This document shows positions 36,001 through 61,486 of a DNA stretch of 64,000 nucleotides, piece after piece. The translations under genes and the position numbers were made by a program. The notes beneath the pieces are model-generated. The model saw nothing but the letters and a program-made list of their open reading frames with translations, ran no database searches and was not told the DNA's origin. The first letter of the stretch is position 1. Each line of letters begins with the position of its first letter. Source of the stretch: Acidaminococcaceae bacterium (GTDB taxonomy: Bacteria > Bacillota > Negativicutes > Acidaminococcales > Acidaminococcaceae); assembly GCA_045598345.1 (NCBI GenBank), contig JAZLLX010000093.1, forward strand, positions 54,166 to 118,165. Direction: 5' to 3'.

Positions 36001-39000
36001 AGGGAAATGTTTTTGTCGTCAGCGGTCTTCAAACTAATATCTTTGTCCGCCTCAATAGCGGCAAACTCGGCATCCCCTGTGCCGGTTAAAGTAATGCTGC
36101 CGGCAGTTGCTGTCATTGTATCTTTGGCTGTAATGCTACCGCCGGTCAAAGTGATGTTTCCGGCTGTGGCAGTTACGGTATCAGCAAATTCAGCGGTGGT
36201 GAAGGTAGAAACAACACCTGTGCCTGCCTGAACCGCACCGGCAATTTCTAAAGTACCGCCAGTTAAAGTAACGATTTCACCACCGGTAATGTCATTGGCA
36301 ACAGAAAGTTTAGTGCCACCGGTCAAAGTTACATCATCGGAGCCATTGACTTTGCCTTGGATATTTACATTGCGGGTACCATTGACAGTAATAGTACCAC
36401 CGGTGGTCTTCAGCACTTCATCATCAATGCTGTCAACATAGTTGACAGTAATGTCTTTGCCTTGCAAATCTATATTCTTGCCCGCATTAATCTTCTTGAA
36501 AGTTGCACTGGCAGAAGTATCGCCATTCAAAGTAATGTCACCGCCTGCGGTCATGGATGCACTTGCATCCACAGAGTTGGCATGCATAGCAATATTGCCG
36601 GTGTTGGCAGTAACATCTTTATTGATATCCAAAATGCCTGCGGCAGTCAAAAGCACACTGCCTGCCGCTGCGGTAATGCCACCGTCAACAGTAATATTTC
36701 TGCCTTTAACATCAACAGTATTTGTTGTTGCAGCATTGCCTGTACCAGTTGCAGTAACAAGCCCATTTAATGTAATGTCATTACTATTTGTGGTCTTTAA
36801 TACCACATCCTTGTGTGCAGTCAAGGCATCAAATTCTGCATCGCCGCCAGTTGTAGTATTGTCCATTAAGATGCTGCCTTTGGCAGAAGTCATATCTTTG
36901 GCAATAATATCTTTAACATTTAAAATGATATTATTTTCGTTTGTCCCTGTGGTTTCTACATTGGCATTAAATTGAACCTTATTGCCTGAATATACAGTAA
37001 TGCCGTCAGTTGCAGATACTGCCCCGTCAAAGGTTGCAGTATTAACACCTGTTTCACTCGTACCAATGGATACGGTGCCGCCGGTGGCGGTAACACTCTT
37101 GCCGGATACGGAACCGCCGGTCAGTACCACATTCAAACCTTGAACTGCATCACCTAACTTAAGGGATGTAGTGCCGTTTAAGTTGACATCACTTGTACCG
37201 GTAACTGTGCCTTTCAGTTCCACTTCACCTGTACCGTTGACGGTAATTTTCTGTGCGGAAAGGTCTTTGTTGGCAATAATATTATTGCCCTGCAAATTAA
37301 TATCAGTGCCTGCTTTCAAATTATTAAACTCTGCAGTTCCTGCAGTTGCATATTGGGTCAAAGTAATGCTGCCGGCGGTGGCTTCAATATCACCGGTTGC
37401 AGTCACATTATCTGCCTTCAGAACAACATTATCAGCACCGGTTACGGTCTTGCCGGATGCGATGGTCAATTTGTTTGCCGCAGTAAGATTTACATCGCCT
37501 GCAGTTGTTGTAACATCTGCATTAACATTCACTTTGTTGCCTGTAACAATAACTGCGGCATTATCCTTCTTTGCAGTCCCTTGAGCAGAAACATCTCCGT
37601 TCAAGGTAATGTCCGCCAAAGCGCCGCCATTGAGTTCAATATAATCACGGGCAGAAATTCCCGCAAAGGTGTCAGTAATAGTTTCACCAGTTGTGCCGGT
37701 AACATTCATAACTACTTTGCCGCCAGCAGCATTCATGGCGCCGGTTGCAGTAATGTTCTTGACATCAAGAGTAATATCACCATTAGTTGCAGTAACTCCT
37801 TTAACTTTGGCGTCAATGGAGGAATATATTTCAACTCCGGTTGCACCAGTTACATTATCTTGCAGTTGGACATTGCCAATCTTATCACCGTCCGCTCCAA
37901 CAGTAACTTTAGCGGATTTTGCTTCAACGGTTCCTTCCGCAGTTACAGAACCGCCGTTCAAAGCGACAGACGCACCTTCAACCGCACCTTTTACCTGCAG
38001 GGAAACATCACCGTTCAATGTAACATTTTCTGTACCGGTAACTGCACCTTTTAAATCAACAATGCCTTTGCCGTTAACGCTAATTGTTCCAGAGGTAAGG
38101 TTATTGTTGGCAGTAATATCCTTGCCTTGCAAATCAATGAGTTTTCCGGCAGTTATGTTGTTAAAGGTTGCACTGACAGCGTTGGTATTGGGTGAAAGGA
38201 TAACACTGCCGTTTTCAGCAACAAGGTCGCCATAGGCAAGCACGGTTGCCGCATCCATAGTAATGGTGGCATTTTGTGCTTGGGCAGTAATAGCAGTACC
38301 TGCTTTAATATTTAATGTATTTTCAGCATCCAGGGAAATATTGCCCTTGGTTGCCGTAATATCAGCATTTACATTGAGGGTCTTGCCGCTAACTTCTACA
38401 CCATTAGTACCTTTCAAAGCATTGCCTGCGGCAGTAACTGCTCCGTCAATGGTAATAATGCTGTTTGTACCGCCGTTAAGGGCAACATAGCCGCCGGCAG
38501 AAACTGCAACAGTGCCGGAAGTAACGCCAAAGGTTGCATCCCCGCTGGCACTCATATCAATACTGCCTGCTGTCGCCGTCATAGTGTCAGCAGATGTGAG
38601 TTTATTGACTATTAAAGTAATATTGCCTGTTCCAGCGGTAACTGTATCGCCAAAAGCCACATTTTCGCTGGAATATACATTTATGGCATTGGTGGCGCTG
38701 ACTGCACCGGTCAGGGTTACGGAAGCAATTGGAGTATCTTCTGTACCAATGGTAATAGTACCCTTGGCAGAATCATCACTTGCGGCTGTTACCGTCCCTT
38801 GGGCAAGCACTTCGCCGCCGTTCAGGATTACATCCTGGCCTGCAACATCGCCTTCCATGGTCAAACTGATGGAACCGTTCAAATCCACATCGCCGCCGGT
38901 AGTGCTAACCTCCTGCCTGGTGGTAACGGTATCGCCCCTTAAAATAATATCTTTAGTGGCGGACAGGGTGTTGAAGGTTGCAGTGCCCACATGGCCTGCT

Positions 39001-42000
39001 TCATCCTCCATAAGGATGCTGCCGCCGGCAACAATACTGCCGTCAGCAGTAACATTTTTGGCATCAATGATTACATCCTCACCCGCCTTAACTGTTTTGC
39101 CCGTCTGAATGGTCAGGCCGTCCGCTATATTGAGGACTACATCACCATTTATAGTAGTGCCAGATACGTTGTTCACATCTGCGTTCACTTTCAAGGTCTT
39201 GGCAGTGATGGCAATGCCGGCGCCGTCAGTTGTTAATGCAGTGCCTGTGGCATTAACTGCATCATTCAAAGTAATTACGCCGGTATCACCGCCGTCAATG
39301 GTAATGTAATTCTTGGCAGTAATTGCCTGTAAATCCGCCTGGGCAGTTACACCGCTCAGGATAACACTGCCGCTTGCAGAATTGATTGCACTTGCCGGTT
39401 TATTGGCTTTAACAGTTGCACCGGTAATGGAGATATCGCCTGTACCCTCATTGGTTACAGTGCTGTCAAAGGTAAAGGTGTTTGCATAAACATCAATGCC
39501 ATCGGTTGCGCTCATGGCGCCGGCAAATTTTGCACTGGTAACCGGTTTTGCTGAAGTGCCTACACTGAGAGTGCCGCCGGTGGCTGCAACAGTACTGTTG
39601 GCAGTTACAGTGCCGCCATTAATAACAACATCTTTGCCGCTGACTGCTCCTGTCATTGTCAAAGAAGTGCCGCCCGTCAAGGTGGCAGTTGCCGTATTGG
39701 CAGTTACTGCACCCAGTAACTGAACTTCGCCGTCACCTTCCACGGTAACTGTGCCGGCAGTAAGGTCCGCATTGGCGGTAATGTTATTGCCAAGCAAACT
39801 GATTATGTCTTTTGCGGTCAAGTTATTAAAGGTGGCAGTACCCGCCGCTTCACCCTTGTCAATTAAGTAGATACTGCCTTGTTCTGCTTTAATATCGCCT
39901 GTTGCAACAACAGTAGCGGAGTCCATATAAACATTGCCTTTTGTTGCTTCTACCGTAACTCCACCGGCAATAGCCAGTTTCTCGCTGGTGGTGAGAAGGA
40001 TATTGCCGTCAGTAGCGGTGGTATCGGCATTGACATTGATGGTCCTGCCTGCAATATCAATGGCTTTATCGGTAACTGCGCCTGTGCCTGTGCCTGACAA
40101 TTTATTTGTACCGGTGGCATTAACTTCGTCATTCAAAGTAATGGTACCGGTGGTGCCGCCGTCAACAGTGATGTAATTGAAGGCGGTAATTTTATCTAAG
40201 TTTGCTTCGGCAGTTACACCACTTAAAATTACGCTGCCGGAGCCGGATTTGATTTCATCTTTAGCCGTAATCTGGGCAGAGTCCACCTTAATATCGTTGG
40301 CAGAACCTGCACCTGTGCTTGTGGAAACAGTGGAATCAAAGGTAACAGAGCCGGCATAAACATCAATACCTTGGGCTGCGCTTAAAGCCCCTGTGAAACT
40401 GCCGGAAGTGATTTTGTCTGTTGTACTTTGACCTACGGTAATCTTGCCGTTTTGGGCAGTAATATCCCCTTGGGCGGTAACATTGCCGCCGTTAATAGCA
40501 ACATTGGTTGCACCAACTACCGCACCGCCGATACTGAGGGTTGTGCCGCCTGTCAGGGTAACTGCACCAACGGTGGAGGTAACAGCAACTTTTTTGCCAT
40601 CAGTCGCTTCGGCAGGAACCGCCCCTTTCAAGTCCACGATGCCACGACCATTTACGGTAACTGTGCCGGCAGTAAGGGCCGCATTGGCAGTAATGTTATT
40701 GCCAAGCAAACTGATTTCTTTATCTGCATTCAAGTTGTTAAAGGTGGCAGTATCGGCGTTATCTTTATTCAGTAACTTAATACTGCCTGTGGTGGCGTTA
40801 ATGTCGCCCGAAGCGCTTACGGATGCGGAATCCATAATTACATCGCCTTGGGAGGAAGTAACGCTCTTGCCGCTGCCAATGGTCAGTACACCGGCGGTGG
40901 TGAACTTCACATCACCCTTGCCGGCAGTAATATCTGCCTGAACATTGATATTGTTGCCTTTTACTTCCACGCCATTGCCGTTTGCAGAACCATCAACTGC
41001 TTTGGCAGTTCCATCTTCTGATGTTGTAACAGTACCTGACAAAGTGATATTGCCTGTGTCGCCGCCCTGAATATCAATATAATTCTTGGCGCTGACTGCC
41101 TGCAAGTCCGCAGAATCGGTTACGCCGTTGATAATTACTTTGCCCATGCCGGAAGTGATGGCGCCCCCAGCCACTAATTTTTGAGTATTTAACGTAATAT
41201 CGTTATCAGCAACACCGCTATTTCCACTATCTTGAGTGGTAACGCTGGAGCCAAAGGTAAGATTGGTTGCATCAATAGTAATCTTATCCGTTGCACTTAA
41301 AGCGCCCTGCAAAGTTGCGGTGCCGACAGTGCTGTCCTGACCAATCTTAATTTCACCATCAGTGGCAGTAATGGTGGCAGTTGTGGCAGTTGCTCTAACG
41401 GTAGCGCCGTCCAAGGTTACGGCAGTGCCGCTTACCGCACCGTCCATAGTAAGGGTGGCGTCTGATTTCATGGTGACAGAGCCGTTACCTTCGCTGTTTG
41501 CCGCTATAGTACCGGTTACAGTCCCCTTGGTCCAAACATCGCCGGTACCGATAATATTGATAGTATTAGTTAATAAATTATTGTTGGCAGTGATTGCCTT
41601 GCCCTGCAAATCAATTTTGTTCAATGCCTGTAATTCGTTAAAGGTGGCACTGACCGCATTAGCGTTTTCAACAAGGGTAATGCTGCCATTTGTTGCCGTA
41701 ATCTTGGTGTCGGCAGCCATTTCCACGGTAGCCGCATCAAGGGTAACATCCTTATCTGCAGTAATATTGCCTTTAATATCCACTTTGCCTGTTTGGGCAG
41801 TCAAAGAGGCACTGCCTGCTGTGGCAGTTACGGAAGCGCCGTTACCGATATTGATATCCTTGCCGGTAATGGTTACGGCGTCAGCAGTGCCGGCAACATC
41901 AGTACCGTCGGCGGTCAAAGTGCCGGACAGGGTGACAACACCTGTTCCCGAATTGAGGGCGATTGTCTTGCCTGCAGCAATATTCTTCAAAAGAATGTCC

Positions 42001-45000
42001 CCGGTAGTGGTGGTCATGGCAATATCCCCGCCGGAAGCGGTTACATTGCCCAGACCTTCGCCCGCCGTATTGGCCGTAACGGATTGGGCGTTAATAGTGA
42101 TATTACCTGCATTAGCAACCGCATTGGTAGCAAAGGTCAGGCCGCCTGTAGCAGTTACAGCAATTCCATTGGCGGCAGTAACATCTTTGTTAAAGTTCAC
42201 TGTTCCTGCATTCGTTGTGGAATTGCCGACAGTAATTGCCCCTGTGGTGGATGTGACTGTGCCTTTGGCAGTAATATCCGCACCGTTCAGGGCCACGGAA
42301 GTGCCGCTGATGTTGCCGTTGACAATCAGTTTGGTCCCGCCGTTCAAGGTTACGGAACCGTAACCTTCACTGTCGGTTGAAGTGGCGCCGGTAACCGCCT
42401 GGAGAATTACTTCACCGGAACCGTCAACAACTACAGTATTGGTACTGAAATCTTTACCTACTGTAATATTATTACCTTTTAAGTTGATTTCGTCTTTTGC
42501 ATATAATTGTTCAAAAGTTGCTTTATTAAAGGTTGTATTTGTATTATTGAGGATGATGCTGCCGTTGGTGGCGGTAATGGTGCCGGTGGCAGTAACATCC
42601 TTAGCATTCATTATTACATCGTCATTGGCAGTTACGCTGCCGGGCAGGGTCAGGGTGCCGGTGGCAGTGAGTTTTACATCGGCGCCTGCGCCTGTATTGG
42701 CAGTAATAGTTGCATTATTGCCGGATGCCGTAATATTGTTGGCGCTGAGGGTAACCCCGTTTGTACCGCCCGAAGTAATGGCATTGTCAAATTTAATTTC
42801 TTTGCCGGTTGCACTCATGCTAATATCCCCGCCGGCAGTAACAATGTGCAGGGACGCATCCCCCGTGCCGGTCATGGTAATATTACCGGTCTTGGCCCAA
42901 ATTTGCGCTCCGGTTGCGGTCAATTTTTCGTTTTCCAAAGCAATATCGCCTGTGGTGGCAGTCACATTACCGTCAAAGGAAATTTCACCGTTGCTTAACA
43001 TAGTAATGCCATTAGCGGCAGTAACAGTGTTATTGAAACTTGCAGATGTAACATATTTGTCAGTCCCACCGACCAAAATTGCACCTTCGGTGGAGGTTAC
43101 GCTCTGCTCTGCATTAATTTCTCCGCCCAACAATGTGACAACGCTGCCCTCAACAGTTCCCTTGGTTCTTAAGGAAGTGTCGCCTTCCAGGGTGACAGTA
43201 GTTGCGCCTGTAATATTGCCCTTTGCCAATACTTCACCGCTGCCGTTGACATTGATTGTGGTTGCGTCAACCGTCTTGTTCAGGGTGATTTTATTGCCCT
43301 GCAAATTAATATTGGCCGCTTTCAGTTCGTCAAATTCCGCACTGACTGCGCCTTCGGGTTTGGTTAAGGTAATATCCCCTTCTGCCTCAATCTTGGCACT
43401 TGCCTGTACGGTCTTGGCATTCAAATGCACATCTTTGGCGGAGGTGACAGCACCTTTCAAAGTAATGCTGTCCGTTGCAGTCAAATCAATGTCCCCTGCA
43501 GTGGTGGTAAGGGTGCTGACTGTAGTTCCCGCATTGATGGTCTTGGCGCTTACGGTAATACCTGCCAAGTTAGTGGAACCAACCGCCTCTACTGTATTGC
43601 TGAAAGTTACTTCCCCGTTAGTGTCTGTTACCTTAAATGTGGTACCGGCATATACAACATTGAATTTTGCTGTGCCGTTGGCAGTGATGTCAATAGCGCC
43701 TGCATTGGCAGTCAAATTATTTTGCGCTTCAAAAGTGCCGTTATCTCTTACCACAATATCTCCGGTGGTGGCGGTTGTGGCTCCGCCAAAGGTCAGGGAT
43801 TCTGCAATATCAGCAGTAATGCCCGTACCTGCAGTAACAATGCCGGTCAGGGAAACCTTGCCCGCCTCATCTCCAGAAGCGCCAATGGTCAAGGTACTTG
43901 CCGCATTTACTAATTTATTATTAGTTACATTAACAATATCACCGTTGAAGAAGATGGTGCCGCCGGAAACATCGTTCTGCATTTCCAGTTTGGTGTCGCC
44001 CACCATGTGAACACTGGTAGCACCGTTGATTGTACCTATTACTGTAACGGTGCCGGTGCCGTCAGTATTGATTACATTGGCGCCCATATTGCCGTTGACA
44101 GTAATATCCTTACCGTCCAAATCAATAGTGCCGTTGGTGGCGGTCAAGTCCTTAAATTGGGCGGAAACAGCGGTGGTCTTCTGGTCCAAACTGATGGTAC
44201 CGCCGCTGACAACGCTTAAACTTGCTGTTGCGGCTTCAACTGTATCCGCATTTACGATAATATCCCCATTGGTTGCAGTGGCGGTATTATTGGTTAAAGT
44301 CAATGTATTGGTGTCAAATTTAATATTACCGTTAGCAACATTAATATTGCTGCCGGAGGTAATGCTGCCCGCAGTAATTTCCATTGCGGTCTTGCCATCC
44401 GAGAGTAAAGTACTGCCTGCCACATTTACAACATCGCCCAAGGTAACGGTCTTGCCGGCGGCAGTAACCTGCATGGATTTGTTGACAGCCAACTCATCCA
44501 AAGCAACATCGCCGGTGGCAGTTACAAAGAGGTTGCCGGCTTTTGCCCAAACCTTTTCAGATGTAGTAAGGGTGCCGGTTTCTAATGTAATATCTCCTGT
44601 ATTAACAGTAACTTCTTTACTGAATGTTAAAGAGGTATCTGCATAAGCATTAAGGGTATCTGCAACAGTAACTGCTCTACTGAAAGTAACAGTTCCTGCA
44701 TGAGTTCCGCCATCGCTGCCATCGCCAATATTCAAAGCGCCTGTTGTGGTTTCAACTTCGCCTTTGGCAAGGACGGTGCCGCCGTTAAAGAAGATTGTGC
44801 CGCCGGAAACATCATTCTGCATTTCCAGTTTGGTGTCGCCCACCATGTGAACACTGGTAGCACCGTTGATTGTGCCTTTTACGGTAACAGTGCCGGTGCC
44901 GTCAGTATTGATTACATCGGCAGACATACCGCCGTTGACAGTAATGTCCTTGCCGTCCAAATCAATGGTGCCATTGGTGGCGGTCAAGTCCTTAAACTTG

Positions 45001-48000
45001 GCGGAAACAGCGGTGGTCTTCGGGTCCAAACTGATGGTGCCGCCGCTGACAACGCTTAAACTTGCTGTTGCGGCTTCAACTGTATCTGCTTTTACGATAA
45101 TATCCCCATTGGTTGCAGTGGCGGTATTATTGGTTAAAGTCAATGTATTGGTGTCAAATTTAATATTACCATTAGCAACATTGATATTGCTGCCGGAGGT
45201 AATGCTGCCCGCAGTAATTTCCATTGCGGTCTTGCCATCCGAGAGTAAAGTACTGCCTGCCACATTTACAACATCGCCCAAAGTAACGGTCTTGCCGGTG
45301 GCAGTAACCTGCATGGATTTGTTGATATTCAACTCATCCAGAGCAACATTGCCGGTGGCAGTTACAAAGAGGTTGCCGGCTTCTGCTGTAATTGTGTTTT
45401 TAGCAGTCAAAGCCACTGTATTCAGGGTAATATCCCCTGCAGTAGCAGTAACTGTCTTATCAAAAGTCAGGGAAGTGCCAATATAGGCATTGATGGCATT
45501 AGCTGCAATAACATCACCGTTAAAGGTTACAGTGCCGGCTTTGCCTGTGGAAGTGCCTATATTCAGAGCCCCTGCTGTGGTTGTAACATTACCTTTGGCA
45601 AGGACGGTGCCGCCGTTAAAGGATGCCGTGCCGCCTGTAACATTGCCCTGCATTTCCAGTTTGGTGGTGCCGTTCATATCAACACTGGTAGTGCCGTTGA
45701 TAGCACCCACTACAAGAACATTGCCGGTGCCGTTGGTATCAATTACATCGGCAGACATACCGCCGTTGACAGTAATATCCTTGCCGTCCAAATCAATAGT
45801 GCCGCCATTTGCGGTCAGTCCCCTGAAGGTTGCGGACACAGCAGTCCCCTTCGGGTCCAAACTGATGGTCTTGCCGGCAGTTTCCAATACCAAATCAGTA
45901 CTTGCCGCATTGACCGTATTTGCGGTCATGGTAATATTGCCATTGGTGGCAGTAACTGATTTATTGCTGCCCAAGGTCAGGGTGTTGGTAATAAAGTTTA
46001 TATCACCCTTGGTTGTGGAAACATCGCCGCTGGCAGTAATGGTTCCGGCAGCAACATAAATACCATAATCACCACTGGCTACCGCACCGCCGCCGGTCAG
46101 GAAAGTGCCGTCAGCATGAATATTGTTGTTAAAGGTAATATCCTTGCCATCGGCAGTGGTCATATTGATGTTGTCATAAGCGTTGACGGTATTGAACTTG
46201 GCGTTGCCCGTGCCGTTCAGTACCACACTGCCCTTGCCTGCAGTAATGGCGGCAGCGGTGGCGGTCAAGTCGCCCACATTAAACACAATATCGTTGTGGG
46301 CAACACTTGTGGAAGAAGTTGCTGTACCGGTTGAAACTGTAGCGCCGCCCAAGGTAAGGGAGGTGGTGGCATTGATTTCAATGCCGTCCGTTGCGGACAT
46401 GGTGCCTGAGAATGAAGCGGTATTAGTGGCAGGGGTGCTTAAGCCCGCAGTAATTTTGCCTCCTGTGGCAGTCATATTGGAACCGGCATTGCCCGTAATG
46501 CTCTTGCCTGTCAAATCAATGGATTTGCCGGTCACGGTGCCGCCGGAGAGGGTAACGCTGTTCTCGCCTTTGATGGCGATTGCACCGGTTGCGTTTATTT
46601 GATTGAATGTTACATCCGTTGTACCATCGGCTGTAACAGTGTTTGCCTGGGTTGCCCCGTTAACCGTAATGGCCTTGCCCTGCAAATTAATTGCCTGTTC
46701 GGCGGTCAGAGCGCTGAAGGTTGCGGAAACAGGGGTAATGCCATCTTTTGACAGAGTAATATTTGTTTTTGCATTGATATTGCCGGAATTGACGGTGGGG
46801 GCTTTCAGGGTTACGGAATCGTTAGAACTTGTAATTCCACCGCCAGTGGTAATGCTGGTGGTGCCGTCAATGGTAATGGCGTCAGCAGCACTTATCAAGC
46901 CCGTAACATTCACAATGCCTGCATCAATGTCAATGCCTGTGGCTGCTGTAATGGTGCTCCTGCCGGTCAAAGTGCCGGTAACATCCATATCAATGTTTGC
47001 CGCAACATCAACTTTCGCCCCAAATTCCGCATTGCCGCTGGCATTCAGGGTCAATGCCCCTTCAGTTGTAGTGAAAGTTGCAGTAGTGCCGGAAGCGGTA
47101 TAATTGCCCACATACATGGTTGCAGAAGCCGCATTAACTATTCCGGTTGTAAGAGATGCCACCTTGCTGGAAGTGCTTGAACCCACGGTTAAAGCATTTG
47201 CAGCAGTCAAATTCTTGGTGGTTACAGAGCCGGAACCGCCCTGCAAAGTAATGCTTTTTGCACTGATGTTATTGGTATTGCCGGTGCCGGCAACTTTGAG
47301 ATCTGCCGCACCTGTAAGGGTGAAAGCATTGCTAATGGTCAGATTGCCCGTAGCATTGGCAGTCAAGTCCTTGGTTTCAGTGATGTTGCCGCTGACGGTA
47401 ATATCCTTGGCGGACATATCTATCTTATTGGTGGCAGTCATATTGGCAAAAGTAACTGCACCGCCAGCATCAGTAACCTTAATATCATTGCCTGCGGTCA
47501 CTTTGCCCGTAGCGAGGACAGTATTGCCTGCCACAGTCATTATTATGTCATTAACGCCTTCAGCAGTCAGTCCGCCTGTGCCGATGTTCACACTGCCGCC
47601 AGTTGTGGAGTTAATACTGATATTGCCGGCAGTGGACTTAACAAGGCCCGTGCCGGTGGTAAAGGACTTGGAATCAACAGTAATGGCCTTGGCAGTCGCC
47701 GTGCTTTGCAAGCTGATTGCATTGCCGGCACCCTTCAAAGTGATATTGCCGCTGGTGGCAGACATAGCGCCTTTGAAGGTGGCGCTGGTGGCATTAGGAA
47801 CGGTAGCAGCGTCATTCAGAGTAATATTGCCCGTTTTGGCGGTGAGGGTGCTTTCCGCAGTGACAACCTTGCCGGTCATGTCAATTTGGGAGGAGGAAAC
47901 GGAATTCAGTTTCAGTTCATCCGCACCTTTCAGAATTGCTTCCCCCGTGGTGGTCAGACCCTTGACAAGGGTGACTTTGGTTCCGTTAAAATTAACTGAT

Positions 48001-51000
48001 TTGGCCCCAATGATCTCATTAAAGCTTACTTGGGCACCATTGAATGTAATTTGATTGGTTGAAGACAATTCCCCGATTTGAGACACTTTGGATGCAACGG
48101 TAGTGGTTAACTTAATATCCCCTGCGGTAGCGGTCAGTTTTTTGTTGGCAGTAATAACGCCTGCATTGATAGTGTAATCATTGGCCGTGCCCGTACCTGC
48201 AATGATAAGGGCGGTGGCGGCGGTCAGGGTTGCCGAACCTTTGGCATCAATAGCAGTTCCCGTGGAACTGAAATTCATGGTGTCACTGTTAAGAACCAAC
48301 GCACCGTTTGTGGTTTTTACAGTACCTTTGTAAGTGGCAGTACTGCCGGAAGTGCCAGATTTTTCCTCGGCTGTAATCTGTTTGGCAGTCAGATTGCCTT
48401 CAAAAGTGATGCTCTTGGCTGTAAGGGTCAGAGCGTTGGCAACAGTTACACTGTCCGCAGAACTGCTGCCCGCCTTAAAGGTTTCCGCAGAGACCTTCAT
48501 GAAGTCCGTAACATTAAGTGCCTTTGCCAAAGAGAACTGCGTGTTCAAAGTGGCATCAATGGATTTGACCCCGGCACCCTTCATGCCGGTCAGAACTTTC
48601 TTGAATGTAATGTTATCAGCAGTTGTAACTTTTAATTCACCAATATTAGCATCTTCGTCAAAAGTAATATTGGAAGCACTAACGACATTTAATTTATTGG
48701 CTATTGCCTTGCCCTTAAATTCCAACGCCCCGTTAGAACTGCCGGCTTTGCCGATATTGACGGTGGAACTTTCGGACTCAATGGCATTTTTGCCTGTAAG
48801 TCCCATATAATGAACGCCGTAAATGTTCAAAACCGAAGTGCTGCCCACGCTGACTATATTGCTGCTGACGGTGTTCACATTTTGCAGATTGATAGTGCCG
48901 GAATTGGACACAATAAGGGTGTCGTTGGCAAAACCCTTAATTGTACCCAGGTCCTCAAAGGTAAGGGTGTCACCCGCACGGACCGTGCCTGCCCCCGCAT
49001 CAACCGTGCCTGCCAGCACATTGCTGCCCGTACCTTTAATTGTCAGGGTACGGGTGCTGCCTTCGCCGGAAGTGATTTCTGCAGTATCACTCGCATTACG
49101 CTTGTGGCCCAAGGTCCCCAAACCGCCATAGTCATTATTGACCGTGTAAGTGCCGGCGGAAATATCATAGGTGTTATATTTGCCCTCCCTGTGATTATCC
49201 TTAAGACCATAGTAAGTGTCCAGGTAACCGCCGTTCACCAGAAGGCCGTTGTCAATGGTGGCCTTAACATTCTGGAAGGCCTCCGTCAGGGTGGACACAC
49301 CGGTCATATTGATTAAAATCCTGCCCTTGTCCGTCAAATCCTGACGCAGGAACACATGGCTTTCCTTGTCCTCGCCCAACAGATAGACAAAATCACTATT
49401 TTCGTAGCGTTTAGCAATATCTTTTTTTGCATCAGAAGCAGCTGCTTCAACTATCTTTATATTGTTCTTGTAGCTGAGATCCCCTTCAAACAAATCAAAA
49501 TAGGTGTGCCGTGAGATTGCTCCCGCCATATCAATATCCAATACGAAAGTACCGGAAGCCGCCCCCGTAAGTTTGATTCTGTCGTTTTTAACATTATTTT
49601 TTGTCGTGGAAGAGAAATCAATATCAAACTGGAGTTTCACATAATCACTGTCCCCGGAAGGAACCCACAGGCCTTTTACTGCAACCGTGTTGTAGGCATC
49701 ATTCTGCATGTCAATGACACCACTTTTGAGCATTGAGATTTTCGCCGCCGTACCCAAATTAGACGCAGTGCCCAACACCAAAGTTCCGACGGAATTCATA
49801 TTGACCGTAGCGCCCGTTCCTGTAAAGGAGTTAATCGTCATTGTGCCGGAATAACCTACGGTATTGGTTCCGCCCATAGCGCCGATGGAAATCAGAGCAT
49901 GGTGATTTACGCTCTGATAACCCGCTTTGTTAAAATTGGCAATGGTAACTGTTGCATAGGCACTGGCTGTCTGCTGTCCGGAGAAAGTGCCGACTGAAAC
50001 ATTTGCCTTAGATCCTACCGTCTGGACAGCATTAACCTGAAGATTGGAAACAAAAGCGGACGCACTGTTGTTAACAATTTGCGTTGCCCCTGCAAGCATG
50101 GCCCCCACAGAACCCGTCTGGCCGGCACTTATGCTCTGCGTTGCCAAAGTTCCCATCGTATCCACATGGCCGGTGCCGGCCGCAATCATCTGGTAAGCGG
50201 AAGACATTGTACCCACGCTGGCGTAACCGTTTCCGCTGATATATTGGTTGGCGCCCTGCATCAGGTCAACAGTACCTTTTGCCCCGTTGCCGGAAAAGGT
50301 CTGGTATGCCTTTGCAGTGCCGTTGTTCATAAGCGTGCCTATGGAAACATTTGCAGTGCCCCCGGAAACAACCTGGGTTCCGCCGGTCATGGTCCCGATG
50401 CTGACAGCCACATTATTGCCGCTCACCTTCTGAGTCATGCCCGTAGCCCCAACAACGGTAACTGCAGCGTTGTTGCCCACAATCTCTTGAATACCGTTCT
50501 CAATATTGGTAACAGTAAGTTTTGCCGCAGAACCGATGACCTGCGTTCCTTGGAGCACCAAATCCACAATAGCATTGCTCGGGCCTTTCGTTGCGGCTGC
50601 GCCCAGTATCTGCACTGCCAAACTGGACATAGTGCCGACACTGATATACGCAGACGCTGCGCTTTGAGTACCTTTGACAAATGTGCCTATAAAACCGGAA
50701 CCTGCATTGGCAACAGATTGAATACCACCGTTAGTAAGGATACCGATAATGCCGCTTGCCCCCGCTGCCACCAGTTGGGTCGCCAAGGCATTAATCGTAC
50801 CGATGGAACCGTACCCTGCGGACATAATATTTTGTGTTCCCGCAATACTCAAAGTTCCAATGTACCCTGCACCTCCCTTGGATACAACCATATTGGCAGA
50901 AAGCATTGTGCCTACGGAAGCGGTGCCGCCGGAATCCACCCGCACCACATTCGTATCGTACTTGTTGGCAGTGTTATATCCGTTTGCATCCCAGTAATGC

Positions 51001-51965: not shown

Positions 51966-53572
51966 TTTTGTCCTCCCTTCGGATTAAAGCCATGGTCTTT
52001 CATACATCTGTCTATGACCCTGCACACCTTTTCCGGTGTGATATTCCTTGTACACTCAAACTGCCGTTCCGTGTTTTTATGCCTTGGGCACCATTCCCCG
52101 TCCGAGTGGTTGAATGTGACCCTTGTATCGTCCCAACATCCGTTGCATGTGTGGTAACATATTACCCTGTAGGGGTTTGTGAACTCATTTATGGGAAGGG
52201 TGAATCCGCTTATCAGGATTACCGGCTTTCCCACCCCCCAGGCCAGCCAGCTGAGCCCGCTGGACAGCCCGATGAAGAAATCCGCATGGTAGATTAGGTC
52301 TATCCTTTCCTGCAAAGGCCGGTCCCCCGTAAAGTCCTCACATCCGAAGGGTATGCTGTTCATGTATGACCCCACCTGGTGATTGTCTTCCTTGTCTATG
52401 CACAGCACCCTGTAACCTTTCAACTTAAGGTACTTGACCACATTGATCCAGCCCCTGGAATTGTTCCAATGCTTTGCCTGGCTGGAGCCGTTGGCGGCGA
52501 TGCAGACGTAGGGGTCTTTAATCGTCCGCTCCGCCAGTTCCTTGGCGCTGGGCAAAAGCCGTGGGGGATGTTCCTCCCATTCGTCAAGCCCCAGGATTAG
52601 CGCCGCATTCCTGTGCAGGCCCATCACCCGGAAATCCACCGGCTGGTGTTCCCTGTCATCGCAGGGGAAGAACACCCCCATGGTGTAAGTTGCGTATATG
52701 TCTTCCGGCAGGCCGGGCGGATATTCCCCTGCCTTTTCCTGATCTTCCGTCCGTGCAATAAAATGCAGTTTGGGATAGCCCGGTTCCAGAATTTCTTTCA
52801 TAGTTTGGCTGATGAGGATATAAACCTCGCACCCGTGTTTTTTCCTGAATTCCTCCGCATAGGGGAACCACGCCAGGGTATCCCCGACAACCACTCCCGC
52901 CGCATACTTGATAAGCACATTTCGTTTTTCGCAGTCATAGTCGTGGGAAAAAACTATTTTGCCGTCCTGGTACAGTTCAAAACGCAGACGCAGGTAGTAT
53001 TTTTTACTTGTGCAAAATACACCCTCTCCGACTTCCCCTGAAAAAATAGTGAGGCAGTCGTCCAGGTCCACCACGTTAAGCCAGTACTTCGCGCCTTTGG
53101 GAATCTGTACCCTGAGCCCGTCATTAAAATCAAATTTCACCCCCGGCAAGGGAGTGCTGTGAACAACTTTTTTGGCATCAATAACCACTTTGGAAGGTTC
53201 TTCACCGTGTTGTACGCCTTCCGTCCCCTGTACAACAACACTGGGGGTATATTCCGCCGCCACAGAACCTCCTGCAGGCATTTTATGCGGATCTGTAACT
53301 ACTGTGGTAACCATATTGTTGGCGCCGGTCACTGTGGTTGTGGTAATAGGTGCCAGCACCCCGGGGGATACGGTGTTGGAGTTCAGCGGCTGAATATTGG
53401 ATACCGCAAGAGGAAGATCCATATCTGTGGCCGGAATCCCCACAAAAACAGTTCCTGAAGGAACATCCGCAGGCGTCCCGTTATTTTGCGGGTTGGAAAC
53501 ATTCTGTTCCGGTGCGGAGCCGCTTGTCTTTTTTTCGTCTATATTCTTTTGCGAATTGTTTTTTGTTGTCAT
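51962..53572 (-). CDS. Autotransporter strand-loop-strand O-heptosyltransferase (BAHT family, TibC/Aah-like), with an extra ~110-130-aa N-terminal low-complexity extension
   Basis: The 536-aa ORF starts at ATG 53572 behind AAGGGGGAAGAG and 1 nt after the upstream stop. Its TGA overlaps the giant gene ATG. From about residue 135 it shows blocks I recognise from TibC/Aah: FDFNDGLRV, SKKYYLRLRF, GDTLAWFPYAEEF, QPVDFRVMGLHRNAALILG, PYVCIAANGSSQAKHWNN, GYRVLCIDKE, EDFTGDRPLQERIDLIYHADFFIGLSSGLSWLAW, PVILISGF and CNGCWDD...WCPRHKNTERQFECTR (the Cys cluster of the iron-binding finger). Confidence 0.85.
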   Translation of the reverse strand: MTTKNNSQKNIDEKKTSGSAPEQNVSNPQNNGTPADVPSGTVFVGIPATDMDLPLAVSNIQPLNSNTVSPGVLAPITTTTVTGANNMVTTVVTDPHKMPAGGSVAAEYTPSVVVQGTEGVQHGEEPSKVVIDAKKVVHSTPLPGVKFDFNDGLRVQIPKGAKYWLNVVDLDDCLTIFSGEVGEGVFCTSKKYYLRLRFELYQDGKIVFSHDYDCEKRNVLIKYAAGVVVGDTLAWFPYAEEFRKKHGCEVYILISQTMKEILEPGYPKLHFIARTEDQEKAGEYPPGLPEDIYATYTMGVFFPCDDREHQPVDFRVMGLHRNAALILGLDEWEEHPPRLLPSAKELAERTIKDPYVCIAANGSSQAKHWNNSRGWINVVKYLKLKGYRVLCIDKEDNHQVGSYMNSIPFGCEDFTGDRPLQERIDLIYHADFFIGLSSGLSWLAWGVGKPVILISGFTLPINEFTNPYRVICYHTCNGCWDDTRVTFNHSDGEWCPRHKNTERQFECTRNITPEKVCRVIDRCMKDHGFNPKGGQK

Positions 53573-53573
53573 T

Positions 53574-54158
53574 TCACTCTTCCCCCTTTCCGAATCTTTC
53601 CAGCAGAATCTCTTTGAACCTGTCTGCAGGAACTATGAATTCCGTCCTGCCCCTGACCACCCTGGCAATCAGGTAACCCTTGTTGTATTCCCAGTTTAGT
53701 TTGCTGGTCTGGAGCACACCGTTCTGTATATATTTTTTTATCCGTTCCTGATTTGTAAAAATCCTTTCGTTGCTCACCAGGGAGGCCAGCGCCGGCTTGT
53801 CAACCAGCGGTGTATAAACGCTGTAGCGGTTCTGGCTGAAGTATTCCTCCAGGGCCTCCATCATCCGCTTGTCCTCACCGTAAAGCACCTTGAGGTACTC
53901 CCACATAATCATGCCGAACTGTTCCTCATTCCCCCGGTCAACATTGAACACGAAGAAAGCCAGTTTGGTGGCAAAATTCATAATCTGGAACGACCTCACC
54001 CCACGGAAGTCAAAGCCCTTGATGCCCCACGCCGTGAGAGGGTCCCATTTTTTTATTTTGAGCAACTGCATGGCAGGCACCCTGTCGCCCTCCGGCAGTT
54101 TGTCCGCCATGGTAATTGCAAATTTGTCCGCTAACCCTTGTGTAATGTGAAAAATCAT
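53574..54158 (-). CDS. Hypothetical protein (194 aa from ATG 54158; the track's 203-aa version starts at GTG 54185), first gene of the giant-protein operon
   Basis: The ORF is open with non-repetitive, normal composition (MIFHITQGLADKFAITMADKLPEGDRV...). Its stop is 1 nt before the BAHT ATG. GTG 54185 would lie ~12 nt from the predicted transcription start with no SD, so ATG 54158 is preferred (weak AAAGAG upstream). I cannot place the family with confidence. Confidence 0.6.
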   Translation of the reverse strand: MIFHITQGLADKFAITMADKLPEGDRVPAMQLLKIKKWDPLTAWGIKGFDFRGVRSFQIMNFATKLAFFVFNVDRGNEEQFGMIMWEYLKVLYGEDKRMMEALEEYFSQNRYSVYTPLVDKPALASLVSNERIFTNQERIKKYIQNGVLQTSKLNWEYNKGYLIARVVRGRTEFIVPADRFKEILLERFGKGEE

Positions 54159-54204
54159 TTGTCCGACTCTTTTCTGGGCACGCACGCCCGCAAAATATAT
54201 TTAT

Positions 54205-54232
54205 ATTATAAGAGGAAATGCAAATTTTGCAA
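54205..54232 (-). promoter_or_regulatory. Sigma-70/SigA-type promoter for the small ORF-BAHT-giant gene operon
   Basis: On the minus strand: TTGCAA (54232-54227), 16 nt, TATAAT (54210-54205). An A11 tract (54250-54240) just upstream of -35 resembles an UP element. The -10 sits ~45 nt upstream of ATG 54158. Confidence 0.6.
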
Positions 54233-54466: not shown

Positions 54467-54495
54467 TTGAAAAATCTTCCCCGCCGTGCTATAAT
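54467..54495 (+). promoter_or_regulatory. Sigma-70/SigA-type promoter (extended -10) for the GT8 gene pair
   Basis: TTGAAA (54467-54472), 17 nt, TGcTATAAT (54487-54495). GGAGGA lies at 54509-54514 and the ATG at 54520. Confidence 0.65.
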
Positions 54496-56207: not shown

Positions 56208-56246
56208 AAAAACCGGCTTCGGGCAAACCCGAAGCCGTTTTTTTTA
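56205..56246. terminator. Bidirectional Rho-independent terminator between the convergent GT8 pair and the minus-strand tailoring operon
   Basis: A8 (56205-56212), stem CGGCTTCGGG (56214-56223), loop CAAA, stem CCCGAAGCCG (56228-56237), T8 (56238-56245). The 10-bp stem is perfect and GC-rich, with a U-run on both strands. Confidence 0.85.
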
Positions 56247-56250
56247 TTGT

Positions 56251-57492: not shown

Positions 57493-57523
57493 TGACTGCC
57501 TCCTCAGTTATGCCGCAATATTT

Positions 57524-58651: not shown

Positions 58652-58661
58652 TTGTTTCCCC

Positions 58662-59552: not shown

Positions 59553-59553
59553 T

Positions 59554-61484: not shown

Positions 61485-61486
61485 TT

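What the first reader, a model, noticed from the sequence alone, without database searches (positions are those of the whole stretch)
49790..53572. TibC/Aah-type heptosyltransferase coupled to a giant protein that carries its cognate 19-aa repeats only near the N-terminus
BAHT enzymes (Aah, TibC) O-heptosylate Ser residues in the 19-residue strand-loop-strand repeats of the ~1-1.3 kaa proteobacterial autotransporters AIDA-I and TibA, using ADP-heptose. Here a clear BAHT homologue ends in an ATGA overlap with the giant gene. The giant gene carries ~20 repeats of exactly that type (e.g. VAVSIGTMTGGTQVVSGGTANVSI) in a ~385-aa patch right after its N-terminal domain. The expression signals are Firmicute-style (GGAGG SDs, TTGxxx-17-TATAAT) and the GC is low to moderate. 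To my knowledge, an enzyme-substrate pair of the AIDA glycosylation system embedded in a >17 kaa mosaic protein has not been described. It also implies the host makes ADP-heptose, so it is likely diderm or LPS-bearing (for example Negativicutes-like).
Basis: partly seen in the sequence, partly recalled or inferred. Interest (0 to 1): 0.85.

Follow-up and report, generated by a model that had tools for sequence, protein, structure and literature searches.

The report
Heptosyltransferase coupled to giant autotransporter-like protein
A sugar-adding enzyme of the TibC/Aah family is translationally coupled to a gene of more than 17,000 codons whose N-terminal end carries about 20 divergent copies of the 19-residue repeat this enzyme family modifies, and the same arrangement recurs in related uncultured gut-type bacteria with genes of at least 24,000 codons.

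Summary
ORF 51962-53572(-) is a true BAHT: TIGR04414 scores 496 bits (cutoff 200), it is about 50% identical to TibC, and the catalytic Asp, the ADP-heptose contacts and the four iron-finger Cys are conserved. Its stop overlaps (ATGA) the start of an ORF that runs 17,321 codons without a stop off the window edge. A 19-residue period exists only at aa ~340-770.

"Exactly AIDA type" is overstated. The curated repeat model TIGR04415 does not hit the patch. The patch is homologous to the repeats of BAHT-adjacent classical autotransporters of Negativicutes, and those match AIDA-I. A matrix built from the patch also finds AIDA-I repeats above shuffles.

New here:
- The closest BAHTs all carry a 130-160 aa N-terminal extension. 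Every one examined is followed by a large ORF cut by the contig end (up to at least 24,080 aa); five of the six are collinear orthologues, four of them preceded by a conserved ~194-aa gene.
- The body is made of ~255-aa all-beta repeats without any Pfam match. All seven distant relatives tested end in autotransporter beta-barrels.

Best reading: a giant autotransporter-type fibre with a heptosylated AIDA-like N-terminal module. The C-terminus, the ADP-heptose supply and the glycosylation itself are untested. It is a new variant of a known kind, of moderately high interest.

The parts
54205..54232 (-). Promoter-like site TTGCAA-16-TATAAT upstream of the three-gene unit. It sits in an AT-rich divergent intergenic region that also holds a + strand site (54467-54495) facing the GT8 genes.
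   Evidence: Consensus scan and sequence. This is a consensus match only.
53574..54158 (-). Conserved 194-aa gene of unknown function with a weak DUF6933 match. Its stop lies 1 nt before the BAHT start. The mechanical ORF extends to a GTG at 54185, but the orthologues start at the ATG at 54158.
   Evidence: Pfam PF22016 gives E 3.5e-4, below the cutoff. It is 63-81% identical in L040-L043, always directly upstream of the BAHT, and a ~195-aa gene with a weak DUF6933 match sits there in L047. No PDB sequence hit. Junction sequence.
53147..53572 (-). N-terminal extension of the BAHT (aa 1-142). It is low-complexity, rich in T, V, P and N, and absent from Aah, TibC and ordinary Negativicutes BAHTs.
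   Evidence: 131-161 residues precede the Aah-homologous core only in the giant-linked clade. The extension is conserved at 37-59% identity in L040-L043. No family hit.
52007..53146 (-). BAHT core (aa 143-522): TibC-type beta-barrel domain, GT-B catalytic domain and iron finger. Key residues are D231, S363, K367, R423, S437, W442 and Cys476/479/495/507.
   Evidence: TIGR04414 at 496 bits. TibC alignment. Residue roles from PMC4358343. Residue mapping.
51962..51965 (-). ATGA overlap of the BAHT stop with the giant ORF start (translational coupling). The aah-aidA pair in E. coli has the same 4-nt overlap.
   Evidence: L040 and L042 also show ATGA.
3..51965 (-). Giant ORF of 17,321 codons with no stop, open at the 3' end (it runs off the window). 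It has no cysteine and is rich in T, G, A, N and I.
   Evidence: No Pfam hit anywhere.
51651..51965 (-). Leader, aa 1-105. It has a K/R-rich start, then IQDRIAMMLAGLNAVN, then a spacer ending in NKAEAA. The layout matches the N-termini of Negativicutes BAHT-adjacent autotransporters, so it is a presumed Sec signal.
   Evidence: Invariant columns in A2. Comparison by eye with L008 LQKKLAVAMSLVNALN, L037 ILATLAMGINLVN and GKAEAA, and P0001. The signal function is inferred, not predicted by a tool.
50949..51650 (-). Aromatic-rich N-domain, aa 106-339 (15% W+Y+F against 3% elsewhere). It is found only in the orthologous giants.
   Evidence: No homologue outside the orthologues.
49656..50948 (-). 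Patch of about 20 strand-loop-strand repeats of 19 residues (aa 340-770), the presumed BAHT acceptor region. It holds 15 S-[GA]-x motifs.
49266..49655 (-). Conserved junction domain after the patch (aa 771-900), with the near-invariant FD(V/I)DFS...D.I.LT..SG..VLD motif.
   Evidence: Invariant columns in A2. The resemblance to the motif that ends AIDA-like passengers was seen by eye only and not confirmed. The AF2 model has low confidence here.
18258..32297 (-). Best-preserved body array: 18 tandem units of about 255 aa (aa 6557-11236), 40-58% identical to each other and predicted all-beta. More diverged copies fill aa ~1200-5800 and 11240-17321.
   Evidence: AF2 pLDDT 94. 257 distant relatives. 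All seven relatives tested end in PF03797.

Best explanation
This is a three-gene unit from an uncultured Negativicutes-type (diderm Firmicute) bacterium. Its genes are a small conserved protein of unknown function, an N-terminally extended BAHT O-heptosyltransferase, and a giant autotransporter-lineage surface protein.

Proposed mechanism, with each step marked shown or inferred:

- The enzyme gene ends in a 4-nt overlap with the giant gene start (shown), so the enzyme is made just ahead of its substrate by translational coupling (inferred).
- The substrate's N-terminal ~770 residues emerge first from the ribosome (inferred). They comprise an autotransporter-type leader, an aromatic-rich domain and about 20 coils of a 19-residue strand-loop-strand beta-helix (shown by sequence; the fold is modelled).
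- In the cytoplasm the BAHT transfers heptose from ADP-heptose onto serines in the S-G/A-G loops of those coils, as Aah and TibC do on AIDA-I and TibA (inferred).
- The remaining 16,500 or more residues are a cysteine-free beta-solenoid of ~255-aa repeats (shown by sequence and model). They form a stalk that could reach several hundred nanometres (inferred).
- If the protein is anchored by a C-terminal beta-barrel like its relatives, the glycosylated AIDA-like module sits at the distal tip (inferred; the C-terminus was never seen).
For: Enzyme:
- TIGR04414 scores 496 bits against a cutoff of 200. TibC 4rap matches at E 4.6e-107.
- All functional residues named in PMC4358343 are conserved. These are the catalytic Asp, the Arg, Trp and Lys contacts to ADP-heptose (the Thr is replaced by Ser), and the four iron-finger Cys.
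- The stereoselectivity position is Ser, as in Aah.

Coupling:
- ATGA overlap with the giant ORF. The aah-aidA pair has the same overlap.

Substrate patch:
- A 19-residue period occurs only at aa 340-770.
- The patch is homologous to the repeat regions of autotransporters that sit next to BAHT genes in ten Negativicutes loci. The best is L002 at 3.5e-15, and that protein has an autotransporter barrel.
- hhalign probability to P0001 is 96.9%, E 1.4e-10. P0001 matches AIDA-I at 1e-17.
- A matrix built only from the window's repeats finds 11 sites in AIDA-I, against a shuffle mean of 0.8 and maximum of 5. It finds 1 in a control autotransporter.
- The AF2 model shows alternating strands with a period of about 19 residues. 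Its best PDB matches are Ag43 and glycosylated TibA, at probability 0.98-1.0.
- S-[GA]-x motifs are enriched: 15 in the patch against 4.3 per equal length elsewhere.

Conservation:
- Six further N-extended BAHTs (55-79% identical) were looked up. Each is followed by a large ORF cut by the contig end: at least 24,080, 11,531, 7,723, 1,473, 1,212 and 598 aa.
- Five of these ORFs are collinear with the window protein from residue 1, at 27-41% identity.

Autotransporter lineage:
- The leader motifs are shared with Negativicutes autotransporters.
- The protein has no cysteine.
- The body-repeat profile finds 257 relatives. All seven tested carry a C-terminal PF03797 domain.
Against: - No biochemical evidence exists.
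- The curated target-repeat model TIGR04415 does not hit the patch. Direct similarity to AIDA-I is marginal.
- Serines are not among the invariant columns of the patch across four orthologues.
- The second AIDA-type site (N-S-G-G) is mostly T-G-G or N-G-G here (reading).
- The 3' end of the gene is missing from the window and from every related contig. No beta-barrel or other anchor has been seen.
- No ADP-heptose pathway gene lies in the window.
- The patch model has a mean pLDDT of only 61, and TM-scores to Ag43 and TibA are 0.2-0.35.
- Some BAHT homologues come from MAGs labelled as monoderm Firmicutes. This weakens the step from 'BAHT present' to 'host makes LPS-type ADP-heptose', unless those contigs are mis-binned.
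Confidence: 0.66

Rival explanations
1. The protein is a real BAHT substrate, but it is not a type Va autotransporter. It would be exported or anchored by another route, for example a C-terminal type I secretion signal, a two-partner-like system, or a different barrel class. The autotransporter-like N-terminus would then be a recombined module.
For: The C-terminus was never seen in the window or in L040-L047. A passenger of 17,000-24,000 aa is far longer than any relative found here, the longest being 6,681 aa. It is hard to reconcile with a barrel that is translated last. Some BAHT-adjacent Negativicutes substrates end in a barrel that the narrow barrel profile b1 did not match.
Against: The leader and AEA motifs match Negativicutes autotransporters. 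All seven body-repeat relatives tested end in PF03797. The protein has no Cys. The patch's structural neighbours are autotransporter passengers.
Confidence: 0.15
2. The adjacency is conserved, but the enzyme's main targets are ordinary small autotransporters elsewhere in the genome. The degenerate patch in the giant would be a relic that is poorly glycosylated or not glycosylated at all.
For: The repeats are degenerate and TIGR04415 gives no hit. Serines are not invariant among orthologues. L040 shows only 4 matrix hits, equal to the shuffle maximum. Aah and TibC are promiscuous between substrates (PMC4358343, abstract shown).
Against: The stop-start overlap with the giant ORF recurs in most lineages examined, down to 55% BAHT identity. 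The patch position, its G..Q spacing and its flanks are conserved from residue 1. The giant-linked BAHT clade carries its own N-terminal extension, which suggests co-adaptation.
Confidence: 0.1
3. The BAHT homologue acts mainly as a non-catalytic partner for targeting, folding or holding of the giant protein, as proposed for Burkholderia BimC with BimA, rather than as a glycosyltransferase.
For: BimC is listed as a BAHT-family protein required for BimA function (abstracts of PMC6439308 and PMC11499645; the non-catalytic role is from my own recollection and was not read here). The extra 140-aa extension and the conserved small partner gene could serve handling of a giant nascent chain.
Against: The catalytic Asp, the ADP-heptose-binding Arg, Trp and Lys, and the iron finger are all conserved. 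The substrate keeps a repeat patch of the type that BAHT enzymes modify.
Confidence: 0.07
4. The giant ORF is an assembly artefact of collapsed or concatenated repeats, or a non-functional pseudogene.
For: It is highly repetitive, and no homologue of the body was found by the word-index search.
Against: It has 17,321 sense codons without a stop. The repeats are only 40-58% identical to each other, too diverged to mis-assemble. Independent assemblies from other samples give collinear orthologues of at least 7,700-24,080 aa. One repeat unit folds with pLDDT 94.
Confidence: 0.02

Closest known systems
Aah/AIDA-I and TibC/TibA of E. coli (BAHT heptosyltransferase plus self-associating autotransporter)
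   Same: - The enzyme belongs to the same family, about 50% identical, with all catalytic, ligand-binding and iron-finger residues conserved.
- The enzyme gene lies directly upstream of the substrate gene with a 4-nt overlap.
- The substrate carries 19-residue strand-loop-strand repeats with a G-x-Q-x-V-S-G-G-like motif.
- The predicted beta-helix is closest to Ag43 and TibA.
   Different: - The substrate is at least 17,321 aa (orthologues at least 24,080 aa), against 989-1,286 aa.
- The repeats fill only about 2.5% of the protein, at the N-terminal end, and fall below the curated TIGR04415 model.
- A 234-aa aromatic-rich domain sits between the leader and the repeats.
- The enzyme has a 131-161 aa N-terminal extension.
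- A conserved third gene precedes the enzyme.
- The host is a Negativicutes-type Firmicute, not a proteobacterium.
BAHT plus classical autotransporter pairs of Negativicutes (for example Phascolarctobacterium faecium DSM 14760, locus L037, and Phascolarctobacterium sp., locus L002)
   Same: - These are the nearest sequence relatives of both partners. The BAHT is 55-60% identical, and the repeat patch matches at up to 3.5e-15.
- They share the leader motif and the AEA motif.
- Their repeats are also sub-threshold for TIGR04415, at 16-26 bits.
   Different: - Their substrates are 728-2,500 aa, with a barrel directly after the repeat passenger.
- Their enzymes lack the long N-terminal extension.
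- The DUF6933-like gene is absent from those loci.
Giant bacterial surface proteins reported from metagenomes and genomes (Omnitrophota giants, Chlorobium chlorochromatii 36,805 aa, Oscillospiraceae RCC1 giants; bioRxiv 10.1101/2023.11.21.568195)
   Same: A length class above 10,000 aa, repetitive beta-rich architecture and a presumed adhesion role.
   Different: - None of the giants described in that section is reported there as a Negativicutes protein, as having a dedicated glycosyltransferase, or as carrying an AIDA-type module.
- The present protein has no recognisable Pfam domain at all.
- Its body repeat belongs to a family found in autotransporter passengers.

Membership tests
BAHT (bacterial autotransporter heptosyltransferase; NCBIfam TIGR04414, Aah/TibC) | Scores above the curated cutoff of the equivalog model | tested here: met
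   496.4 bits against a cutoff of 200, covering model positions 10-373 of 374.
BAHT (bacterial autotransporter heptosyltransferase; NCBIfam TIGR04414, Aah/TibC) | TibC-type N-terminal beta-barrel domain followed by a GT-B (GT9-like) catalytic domain | tested here: met
   PF21129 TibC_1st at 51 bits and PF01075 at 45.7 bits, both above cutoff. The alignment to 4rap covers TibC residues 23-386.
BAHT (bacterial autotransporter heptosyltransferase; NCBIfam TIGR04414, Aah/TibC) | Catalytic base Asp-110 and ADP-heptose contacts Thr-226, Lys-230, Arg-286 and Trp-305 (TibC numbering) | tested here: met
   D231, K367, R423 and W442 are conserved. Thr-226 is replaced by S363, which keeps the hydroxyl, and other Negativicutes BAHTs also have Ser there.
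BAHT (bacterial autotransporter heptosyltransferase; NCBIfam TIGR04414, Aah/TibC) | Iron finger with four Cys (TibC Cys-339, 342, 358 and 370) | tested here: met
   Cys476, 479, 495 and 507 lie in CNGCW...WCPR...FECT.
BAHT (bacterial autotransporter heptosyltransferase; NCBIfam TIGR04414, Aah/TibC) | Gene directly followed by its (putative) autotransporter substrate | tested here: met
   ATGA overlap with the giant ORF. The arrangement is conserved in six other lineages.
BAHT (bacterial autotransporter heptosyltransferase; NCBIfam TIGR04414, Aah/TibC) | Heptosyltransferase activity with ADP-heptose, dodecameric ring, and a host that supplies ADP-heptose | not testable with these tools
   No heptose-pathway gene lies in the 12 kb of the window outside the giant gene. 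The genome is not available.
AIDA-type strand-loop-strand O-heptosylation target repeat (NCBIfam TIGR04415) | Scores above the curated cutoff of the repeat model (30 bits) | tested here: not met
   No hit on the patch even at E <= 10. For calibration, AIDA-I scores 397.8 bits, while BAHT-adjacent Negativicutes autotransporters score only 15.7-26.1 bits.
AIDA-type strand-loop-strand O-heptosylation target repeat (NCBIfam TIGR04415) | Tandem repeats with a period of 19 residues | tested here: met
   Lag-19 z = 4.4. 18 in-register copies. Conserved Q residues are spaced 18-19 apart across orthologues.
AIDA-type strand-loop-strand O-heptosylation target repeat (NCBIfam TIGR04415) | Sequence relationship to repeats of proven BAHT substrates (AIDA-I, TibA) | tested here: inconclusive
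   Direct comparison: BLASTP E 0.001 and hhalign probability 24%. Indirect: the patch matches P0001 at 96.9%, and P0001 matches AIDA-I at 1e-17. The window-derived matrix finds 11 AIDA-I sites against a shuffle maximum of 5.
AIDA-type strand-loop-strand O-heptosylation target repeat (NCBIfam TIGR04415) | Beta-helix fold of the SAAT type with acceptor Ser in loop S-G-G motifs | tested here: inconclusive
   The AF2 model has pLDDT 70-92 over the patch but a mean of 61. Top Foldseek hits are Ag43 and glycosylated TibA at probability 0.98-1.0, with TM-scores of 0.2-0.35. The patch holds 15 S-[GA]-x motifs, but no Ser is invariant among the orthologues.
Type Va (classical) autotransporter | N-terminal Sec signal | tested here: inconclusive
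   The leader shares its motif with Negativicutes autotransporters, by inspection. No signal-peptide predictor was available.
Type Va (classical) autotransporter | Beta-solenoid passenger | tested here: met
   The body unit is all-beta at pLDDT 94. All of its weak PDB matches are beta-helices, none significant. The patch model is closest to autotransporter passengers.
Type Va (classical) autotransporter | C-terminal 12-stranded beta-barrel (PF03797 / TIGR01414) | not testable with these tools
   The ORF leaves the window and every orthologous contig before its end. The only evidence is indirect: all seven relatives of the body repeat that were tested carry PF03797.

The most novel reading that the evidence does not exclude
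These genes may encode the largest type V (autotransporter-lineage) proteins known, at 24,000 aa or more. They would be served by a dedicated three-gene module: a DUF6933-like protein, an N-terminally extended BAHT and the giant itself. The module would heptosylate the N-terminal AIDA-like tip co-translationally, during the tens of minutes needed to translate the rest. If the C-terminus is a barrel made last, a polypeptide of about 2 MDa must be held export-competent for that whole time. That does not fit current models of autotransporter secretion and implies a new handling mechanism, possibly involving the enzyme's extension and the small partner.
Probability: 0.3. Interest if true: 0.8.

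Novelty: new variant of a known kind. Interest (0 to 1): 0.62.

Why it matters
BAHT glycosylation has been studied only on ~1,000-1,300 aa proteobacterial adhesins. In that system a dodecameric enzyme ring is reported to enclose six substrate beta-helices (PMC4358343).

Here the same enzyme family is dedicated to a short N-terminal module of a protein 15-20 times longer, in gut-type diderm Firmicutes. That gives three things:

1. A natural test of whether BAHTs can act on a nascent chain.
2. A candidate record-size autotransporter-lineage protein that strains current secretion models.
3. An unannotated passenger-repeat family (257 representatives, no Pfam model) and a conserved accessory gene of unknown function.

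The practical value is modest: a defined 430-aa acceptor patch and its enzyme for glyco-engineering tests, and a marker (the N-extended BAHT) for finding such giant genes in fragmented assemblies.

Tried and rejected
Family and sequence searches that found nothing:
- Pfam over all 17,321 residues in four chunks gave no family.
- NCBIfam and Pfam on the patch at E <= 10 gave nothing relevant.
- PDB sequence searches with the patch, with the profile of four orthologues and with the DUF6933-like profile gave nothing meaningful.
- The word-index homology search with body aa 7001-7800 found nothing. The exhaustive profile search was needed.

Attempts to find the source genome or the gene's 3' end:
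- Exact-protein look-ups of the BAHT and of a DegT gene were not on record.
- The genome-contig scan gave no identical genome, best 60%.
- Two metagenome scans, with the last 500 aa in the window and with the DUF6933-like alignment, were both empty.
- The C-terminus therefore could not be reached.

Structure and profile work:
I used the window patch plus P0001 instead, which gave only moderate confidence.
- Foldseek of the body unit gave no significant PDB match.
- A locally iterated barrel HMM drifted into passenger sequence: 102 hits, including OmpA-ended proteins. I discarded it in favour of a Pfam check on seven C-termini.
- P0001, the only database hit of the N-terminal 800 aa, is not itself next to a BAHT. 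The argument therefore rests on L002 and the other BAHT-adjacent loci.

Literature and rejected artefact reading:
- Searches for giant Negativicutes autotransporters, for BAHTs in Negativicutes and for the SRA accessions found nothing relevant.
- I considered and rejected chance periodicity, because shuffles give 0.4 matrix hits, and assembly artefact, because independent collinear orthologues exist.

Full report
**1. What is in the sequence**

On the minus strand, ORF 51962-53572 encodes 536 aa. Its last four bases, ATGA, contain the start codon of a second ORF that is preceded by an AGGGAGGA Shine-Dalgarno. That second ORF runs from 51965 to window base 3 without a stop: 17,321 codons, open at its 3' end.

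Upstream, a 194-aa gene (53574-54158) ends 1 nt before the enzyme's ATG. A TTGCAA-16-TATAAT site lies at 54232-54205, in an AT-rich divergent intergenic region. The three genes therefore look like one tightly coupled transcription unit. That is inferred from spacing, not shown.

**2. The enzyme**

The 536-aa protein is a BAHT by every sequence criterion I could test.
- NCBIfam TIGR04414 scores 496.4 bits against a cutoff of 200.
- Pfam TibC_1st and Glyco_transf_9 both score above their cutoffs.
- The TibC crystal-structure sequence matches at E 4.6e-107 over TibC residues 23-386.

The eLife study of TibC (PMC4358343) names the functional residues. They are the catalytic base Asp-110, the ADP-heptose contacts Thr-226, Lys-230, Arg-286 and Trp-305, and the iron-finger Cys-339, 342, 358 and 370.

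In the window enzyme these are D231, S363 (Thr to Ser), K367, R423, W442 and Cys476, 479, 495 and 507.

The position that sets sugar stereoselectivity (TibC Pro-300, Aah Ser-294) is Ser437. By the published mutagenesis this predicts Aah-like tolerance of both ADP-D,D- and ADP-L,D-heptose. That is an inference.

The first ~140 residues are a low-complexity extension with no family match.

**3. The repeat patch**

Identity at lag 19 in aa 341-760 is 0.197, against a mean of 0.094 over lags 2-80 (z = 4.4). Lag 19 is the top lag only in the first two 600-aa windows of the protein.

An ungapped 19-column matrix refined on the patch places 18 in-register copies between aa 350 and 768. It scores 19 hits of at least 10 bits in the patch and one hit in the other ~16,880 residues. 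Shuffled patches give 0.4 hits.

**4. Is it the BAHT-target repeat?**

It is not, by the curated model. TIGR04415 and Pfam give nothing on the patch even at E <= 10. I calibrated this negative result. AIDA-I from an E. coli plasmid scores 397.8 bits. Three Negativicutes autotransporters, two of them directly next to BAHT genes, score only 15.7-26.1 bits, below the 30-bit cutoff. The model is tuned to proteobacterial repeats.

Other tests do link the patch to this repeat class.
- The only protein among 5.8 billion that matched the first 800 aa was P0001, a 1,104-aa autotransporter, through its 19-residue repeats. The database E-value is 1.5e-5, the pairwise value 2e-12.
- tblastn of the N-terminal 900 aa against the loci fetched with the enzyme hits only with the patch. 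The hits fall on repeat proteins that sit beside BAHT genes in ten Negativicutes loci, best L002 at 3.5e-15.
- A profile of four orthologous giants matches P0001 with 96.9% probability over 303 columns. It matches AIDA-I with only 24%. P0001 itself matches AIDA-I at 1e-17.
- The matrix built only from the window's repeats finds 11 sites in AIDA-I (shuffle mean 0.8, maximum 5), 19 in P0001 and 17 in the L002 autotransporter. It finds 1 in a control autotransporter without such repeats.
- An AF2 model of aa 330-900, using a two-sequence alignment, has pLDDT 70-92 across the patch but a mean of 61. It shows alternating strands of 7 and 4 residues with a period of about 19.
- The model's best PDB matches are Ag43 (four entries) and the TibC-glycosylated TibA fragment 4q1q, at probability 0.98-1.0. 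E-values are only 2e-4 to 1e-2 and TM-scores 0.2-0.35.

I conclude that the patch is a diverged member of the SAAT-type strand-loop-strand repeat class, reached through Negativicutes intermediates. It is not 'exactly' the AIDA repeat.

TibC modifies Ser in N-S-G-G and T-S-A-A contexts. The patch holds 15 S-[GA]-x motifs, against 4.3 per equal length elsewhere. However, no Ser is invariant across the orthologues.

**5. Who has this?**

A scan of one genome per species with the enzyme found 38 loci. Most are Negativicutes: Phascolarctobacterium, Acidaminococcaceae, Succiniclasticum, Anaerovibrio and Selenomonadaceae, at 45-60% identity. A few are Burkholderia and others. No identical genome turned up.

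In P. faecium DSM 14760 the BAHT is followed by a 728-aa classical autotransporter with the repeats and a PF03797 barrel. Public records already name many of these enzymes 'autotransporter strand-loop-strand O-heptosyltransferase'. BAHT-autotransporter pairs in Negativicutes are therefore known to annotation pipelines. I found no paper about them.

**6. The giant format is conserved**

The nine closest enzymes (55-79% identity, 536-578 aa) are all long, and the five of them aligned carry the N-terminal extension. Ordinary Negativicutes BAHTs have only 9-56 residues before the core.

I looked up six of them. Each is followed, usually with an overlap, by an ORF that runs to the end of its contig:

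| Locus | ORF length (aa, cut by contig end) | Contig |
|---|---|---|
| L040 | at least 24,080 | 87.8 kb |
| L042 / L043 | at least 11,531 | about 37-39 kb |
| L041 | at least 7,723 | 38.4 kb |
| L045 | at least 1,473 | 9.6 kb |
| L047 | at least 1,212 | 6.3 kb |
| L048 | at least 598 | 5.3 kb |

Five of these ORFs are collinear with the window protein from residue 1, at 27-41% identity. The 194-aa upstream gene is present in L040-L043, 63-81% identical. It appears in L047 as a ~195-aa gene with a weak DUF6933 match. It is absent from all ordinary BAHT loci.

In the orthologues the matrix hits again fall only within aa 336-718. These independent assemblies rule out an assembly artefact, and they show that the coupling is selected.

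**7. The rest of the protein**

No Pfam family matches anywhere in the protein. Self-comparison shows arrays of diverged repeats. The clearest array is 18 units of about 255 aa at aa 6557-11236, 40-58% identical to each other. One unit folds as an all-beta structure with pLDDT 94. Foldseek finds no significant PDB match for it, and every weak match is a beta-helix.

An exhaustive profile search of 1.84 billion representatives found 257 relatives at E <= 1e-3. They are long proteins of up to 6,681 aa and about 27-34% identical. I checked seven of them with Pfam, and all end in a PF03797 autotransporter barrel.

Three more features fit an autotransporter origin.
- The giant's leader (IQDRIAMMLAGLNAVN, then ...NKAEAA) matches by eye the N-termini of Negativicutes BAHT-adjacent autotransporters, such as LQKKLAVAMSLVNALN and GKAEAA.
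- The protein has no cysteine. Low cysteine content is typical of autotransporter passengers; that statement is from my own knowledge.
- A 234-aa aromatic-rich domain (15% W+Y+F) lies between the leader and the patch. It has no relatives outside the orthologues.

**8. Mechanism proposed**

Shown:
- The enzyme family and its intact active-site residues.
- The stop-start overlap.
- The N-terminal 19-residue beta-repeat patch related to BAHT-adjacent substrates.
- Conserved synteny.
- The autotransporter affinities of the leader, the patch and the body.

Inferred:
- The enzyme heptosylates Ser in the patch in the cytoplasm, as Aah and TibC do.
- Because the patch is the first folded part to leave the ribosome, and translating 17,000-24,000 codons at 10-20 aa/s takes roughly 15-40 minutes, modification is probably co-translational.
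- The body forms a beta-solenoid stalk. At about 20-25 residues per 4.8-Å coil it would be about 0.3-0.5 µm long. That figure is a rough estimate, not a measurement.
- If the protein is anchored by a C-terminal barrel, the glycosylated AIDA-like module is the distal tip.

Not known:
- The C-terminus.
- The ADP-heptose supply.
- The roles of the enzyme's extension and of the small partner gene.

**9. Comparison and novelty**

The unit works like Aah/AIDA-I and TibC/TibA. The enzyme passes every family criterion testable from sequence.

The substrate fails the curated repeat model, and its membership in type Va cannot be completed without the 3' end. The differences from the known pairs are:
- the scale, 15-20 times longer or more;
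- the confinement of acceptor repeats to about 2.5% of the protein;
- the extra N-domain;
- the enzyme's extension;
- the third gene.

I rate it a new variant of a known kind. A preprint surveying giant bacterial genes describes no such family.

**10. Verdict**

Interest is moderately high at 0.62. The enzyme-substrate logic is conventional. A conserved, dedicated glycosylation module on an autotransporter-lineage protein of at least 24,000 aa is unexpected, and it makes questions about co-translational glycosylation and type V secretion limits directly testable.

Noticed in passing
window 53574-54158 (-); L040 9420-9998, L041 9415-9999, L042 2171-2755: A 194-aa gene with only a sub-threshold DUF6933 match is more conserved (63-81% identity) than the giant protein (27-41%). 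Among all the BAHT loci fetched, it occurs only in the giant-linked ones. It has no PDB relative, and its function is unknown.
   Followed up: partly
window 53147-53572 (-): The BAHT has a low-complexity N-terminal extension of about 140 aa (131-161 aa in relatives). It marks the clade linked to giant genes and is conserved at 37-59% identity. It could serve as a search handle for such loci in fragmented assemblies.
   Followed up: partly
window 54520-61490: A glycan-type gene cluster lies next to the unit: two GT8 genes on the + strand, then on the - strand two DegT-family aminotransferases, two GT2 genes and a radical-SAM gene. The same set is syntenic upstream of the BAHT in L041, and a GT8 also appears upstream in L040 and L045. 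Whether these enzymes extend the protein-linked sugar or make LPS or capsule is unknown.
   Followed up: partly
window 3-49265 (-), for example 18258-32297: The body repeat of about 255 aa has four sub-repeats of about 62 aa, with motifs such as N.GTL.LT.GNL. It has no Pfam model, yet it has 257 representatives in a 1.84-billion-protein library, apparently as a passenger repeat of autotransporters.
   Followed up: partly
window 1-51965: GC content falls steadily along the single giant gene, from about 0.50 at its 5' end (48-52 kb) to about 0.40 at its 3' part (1-12 kb). The protein contains no cysteine in 17,321 residues.
   Followed up: no
window 50949-51650 (-): An aromatic-rich domain (aa 106-339, 15% W+Y+F) lies between the leader and the repeat patch. 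It is conserved only in the closest orthologue (L041, 38% identity) and partly in L040, and it has no other relatives.
   Followed up: partly
L021, L029-L033, L035 (genome-contig hits): BAHT homologues at 46-50% identity occur on contigs of MAGs labelled Roseburia, Blautia, Lachnospiraceae and Solobacterium, which are monoderm Firmicutes. No autotransporter barrel was detected on those contigs. Either the contigs are mis-binned or BAHT-like enzymes exist outside diderms.
   Followed up: partly
L013 9986-12456, L014 5059-7477; long matches in L008, L011, L012, L016, L036: Succiniclasticum and Anaerovibrio loci (L013, L014) carry two BAHT genes in tandem, and the match length suggests the same in other Negativicutes loci. 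In these loci the repeat-bearing substrate gene lies on either side and sometimes on the opposite strand.
   Followed up: no
L019 2-7507 (-): A protein of at least 2,502 aa next to a BAHT in a Selenomonadales MAG appears to consist largely of 19-residue repeats, seen in its last 150 aa and in its matches to the patch (GGTGVISGFSGGTQTIAEGG...). It is the opposite extreme to the window protein, where the repeats fill about 2.5% of the length.
   Followed up: no
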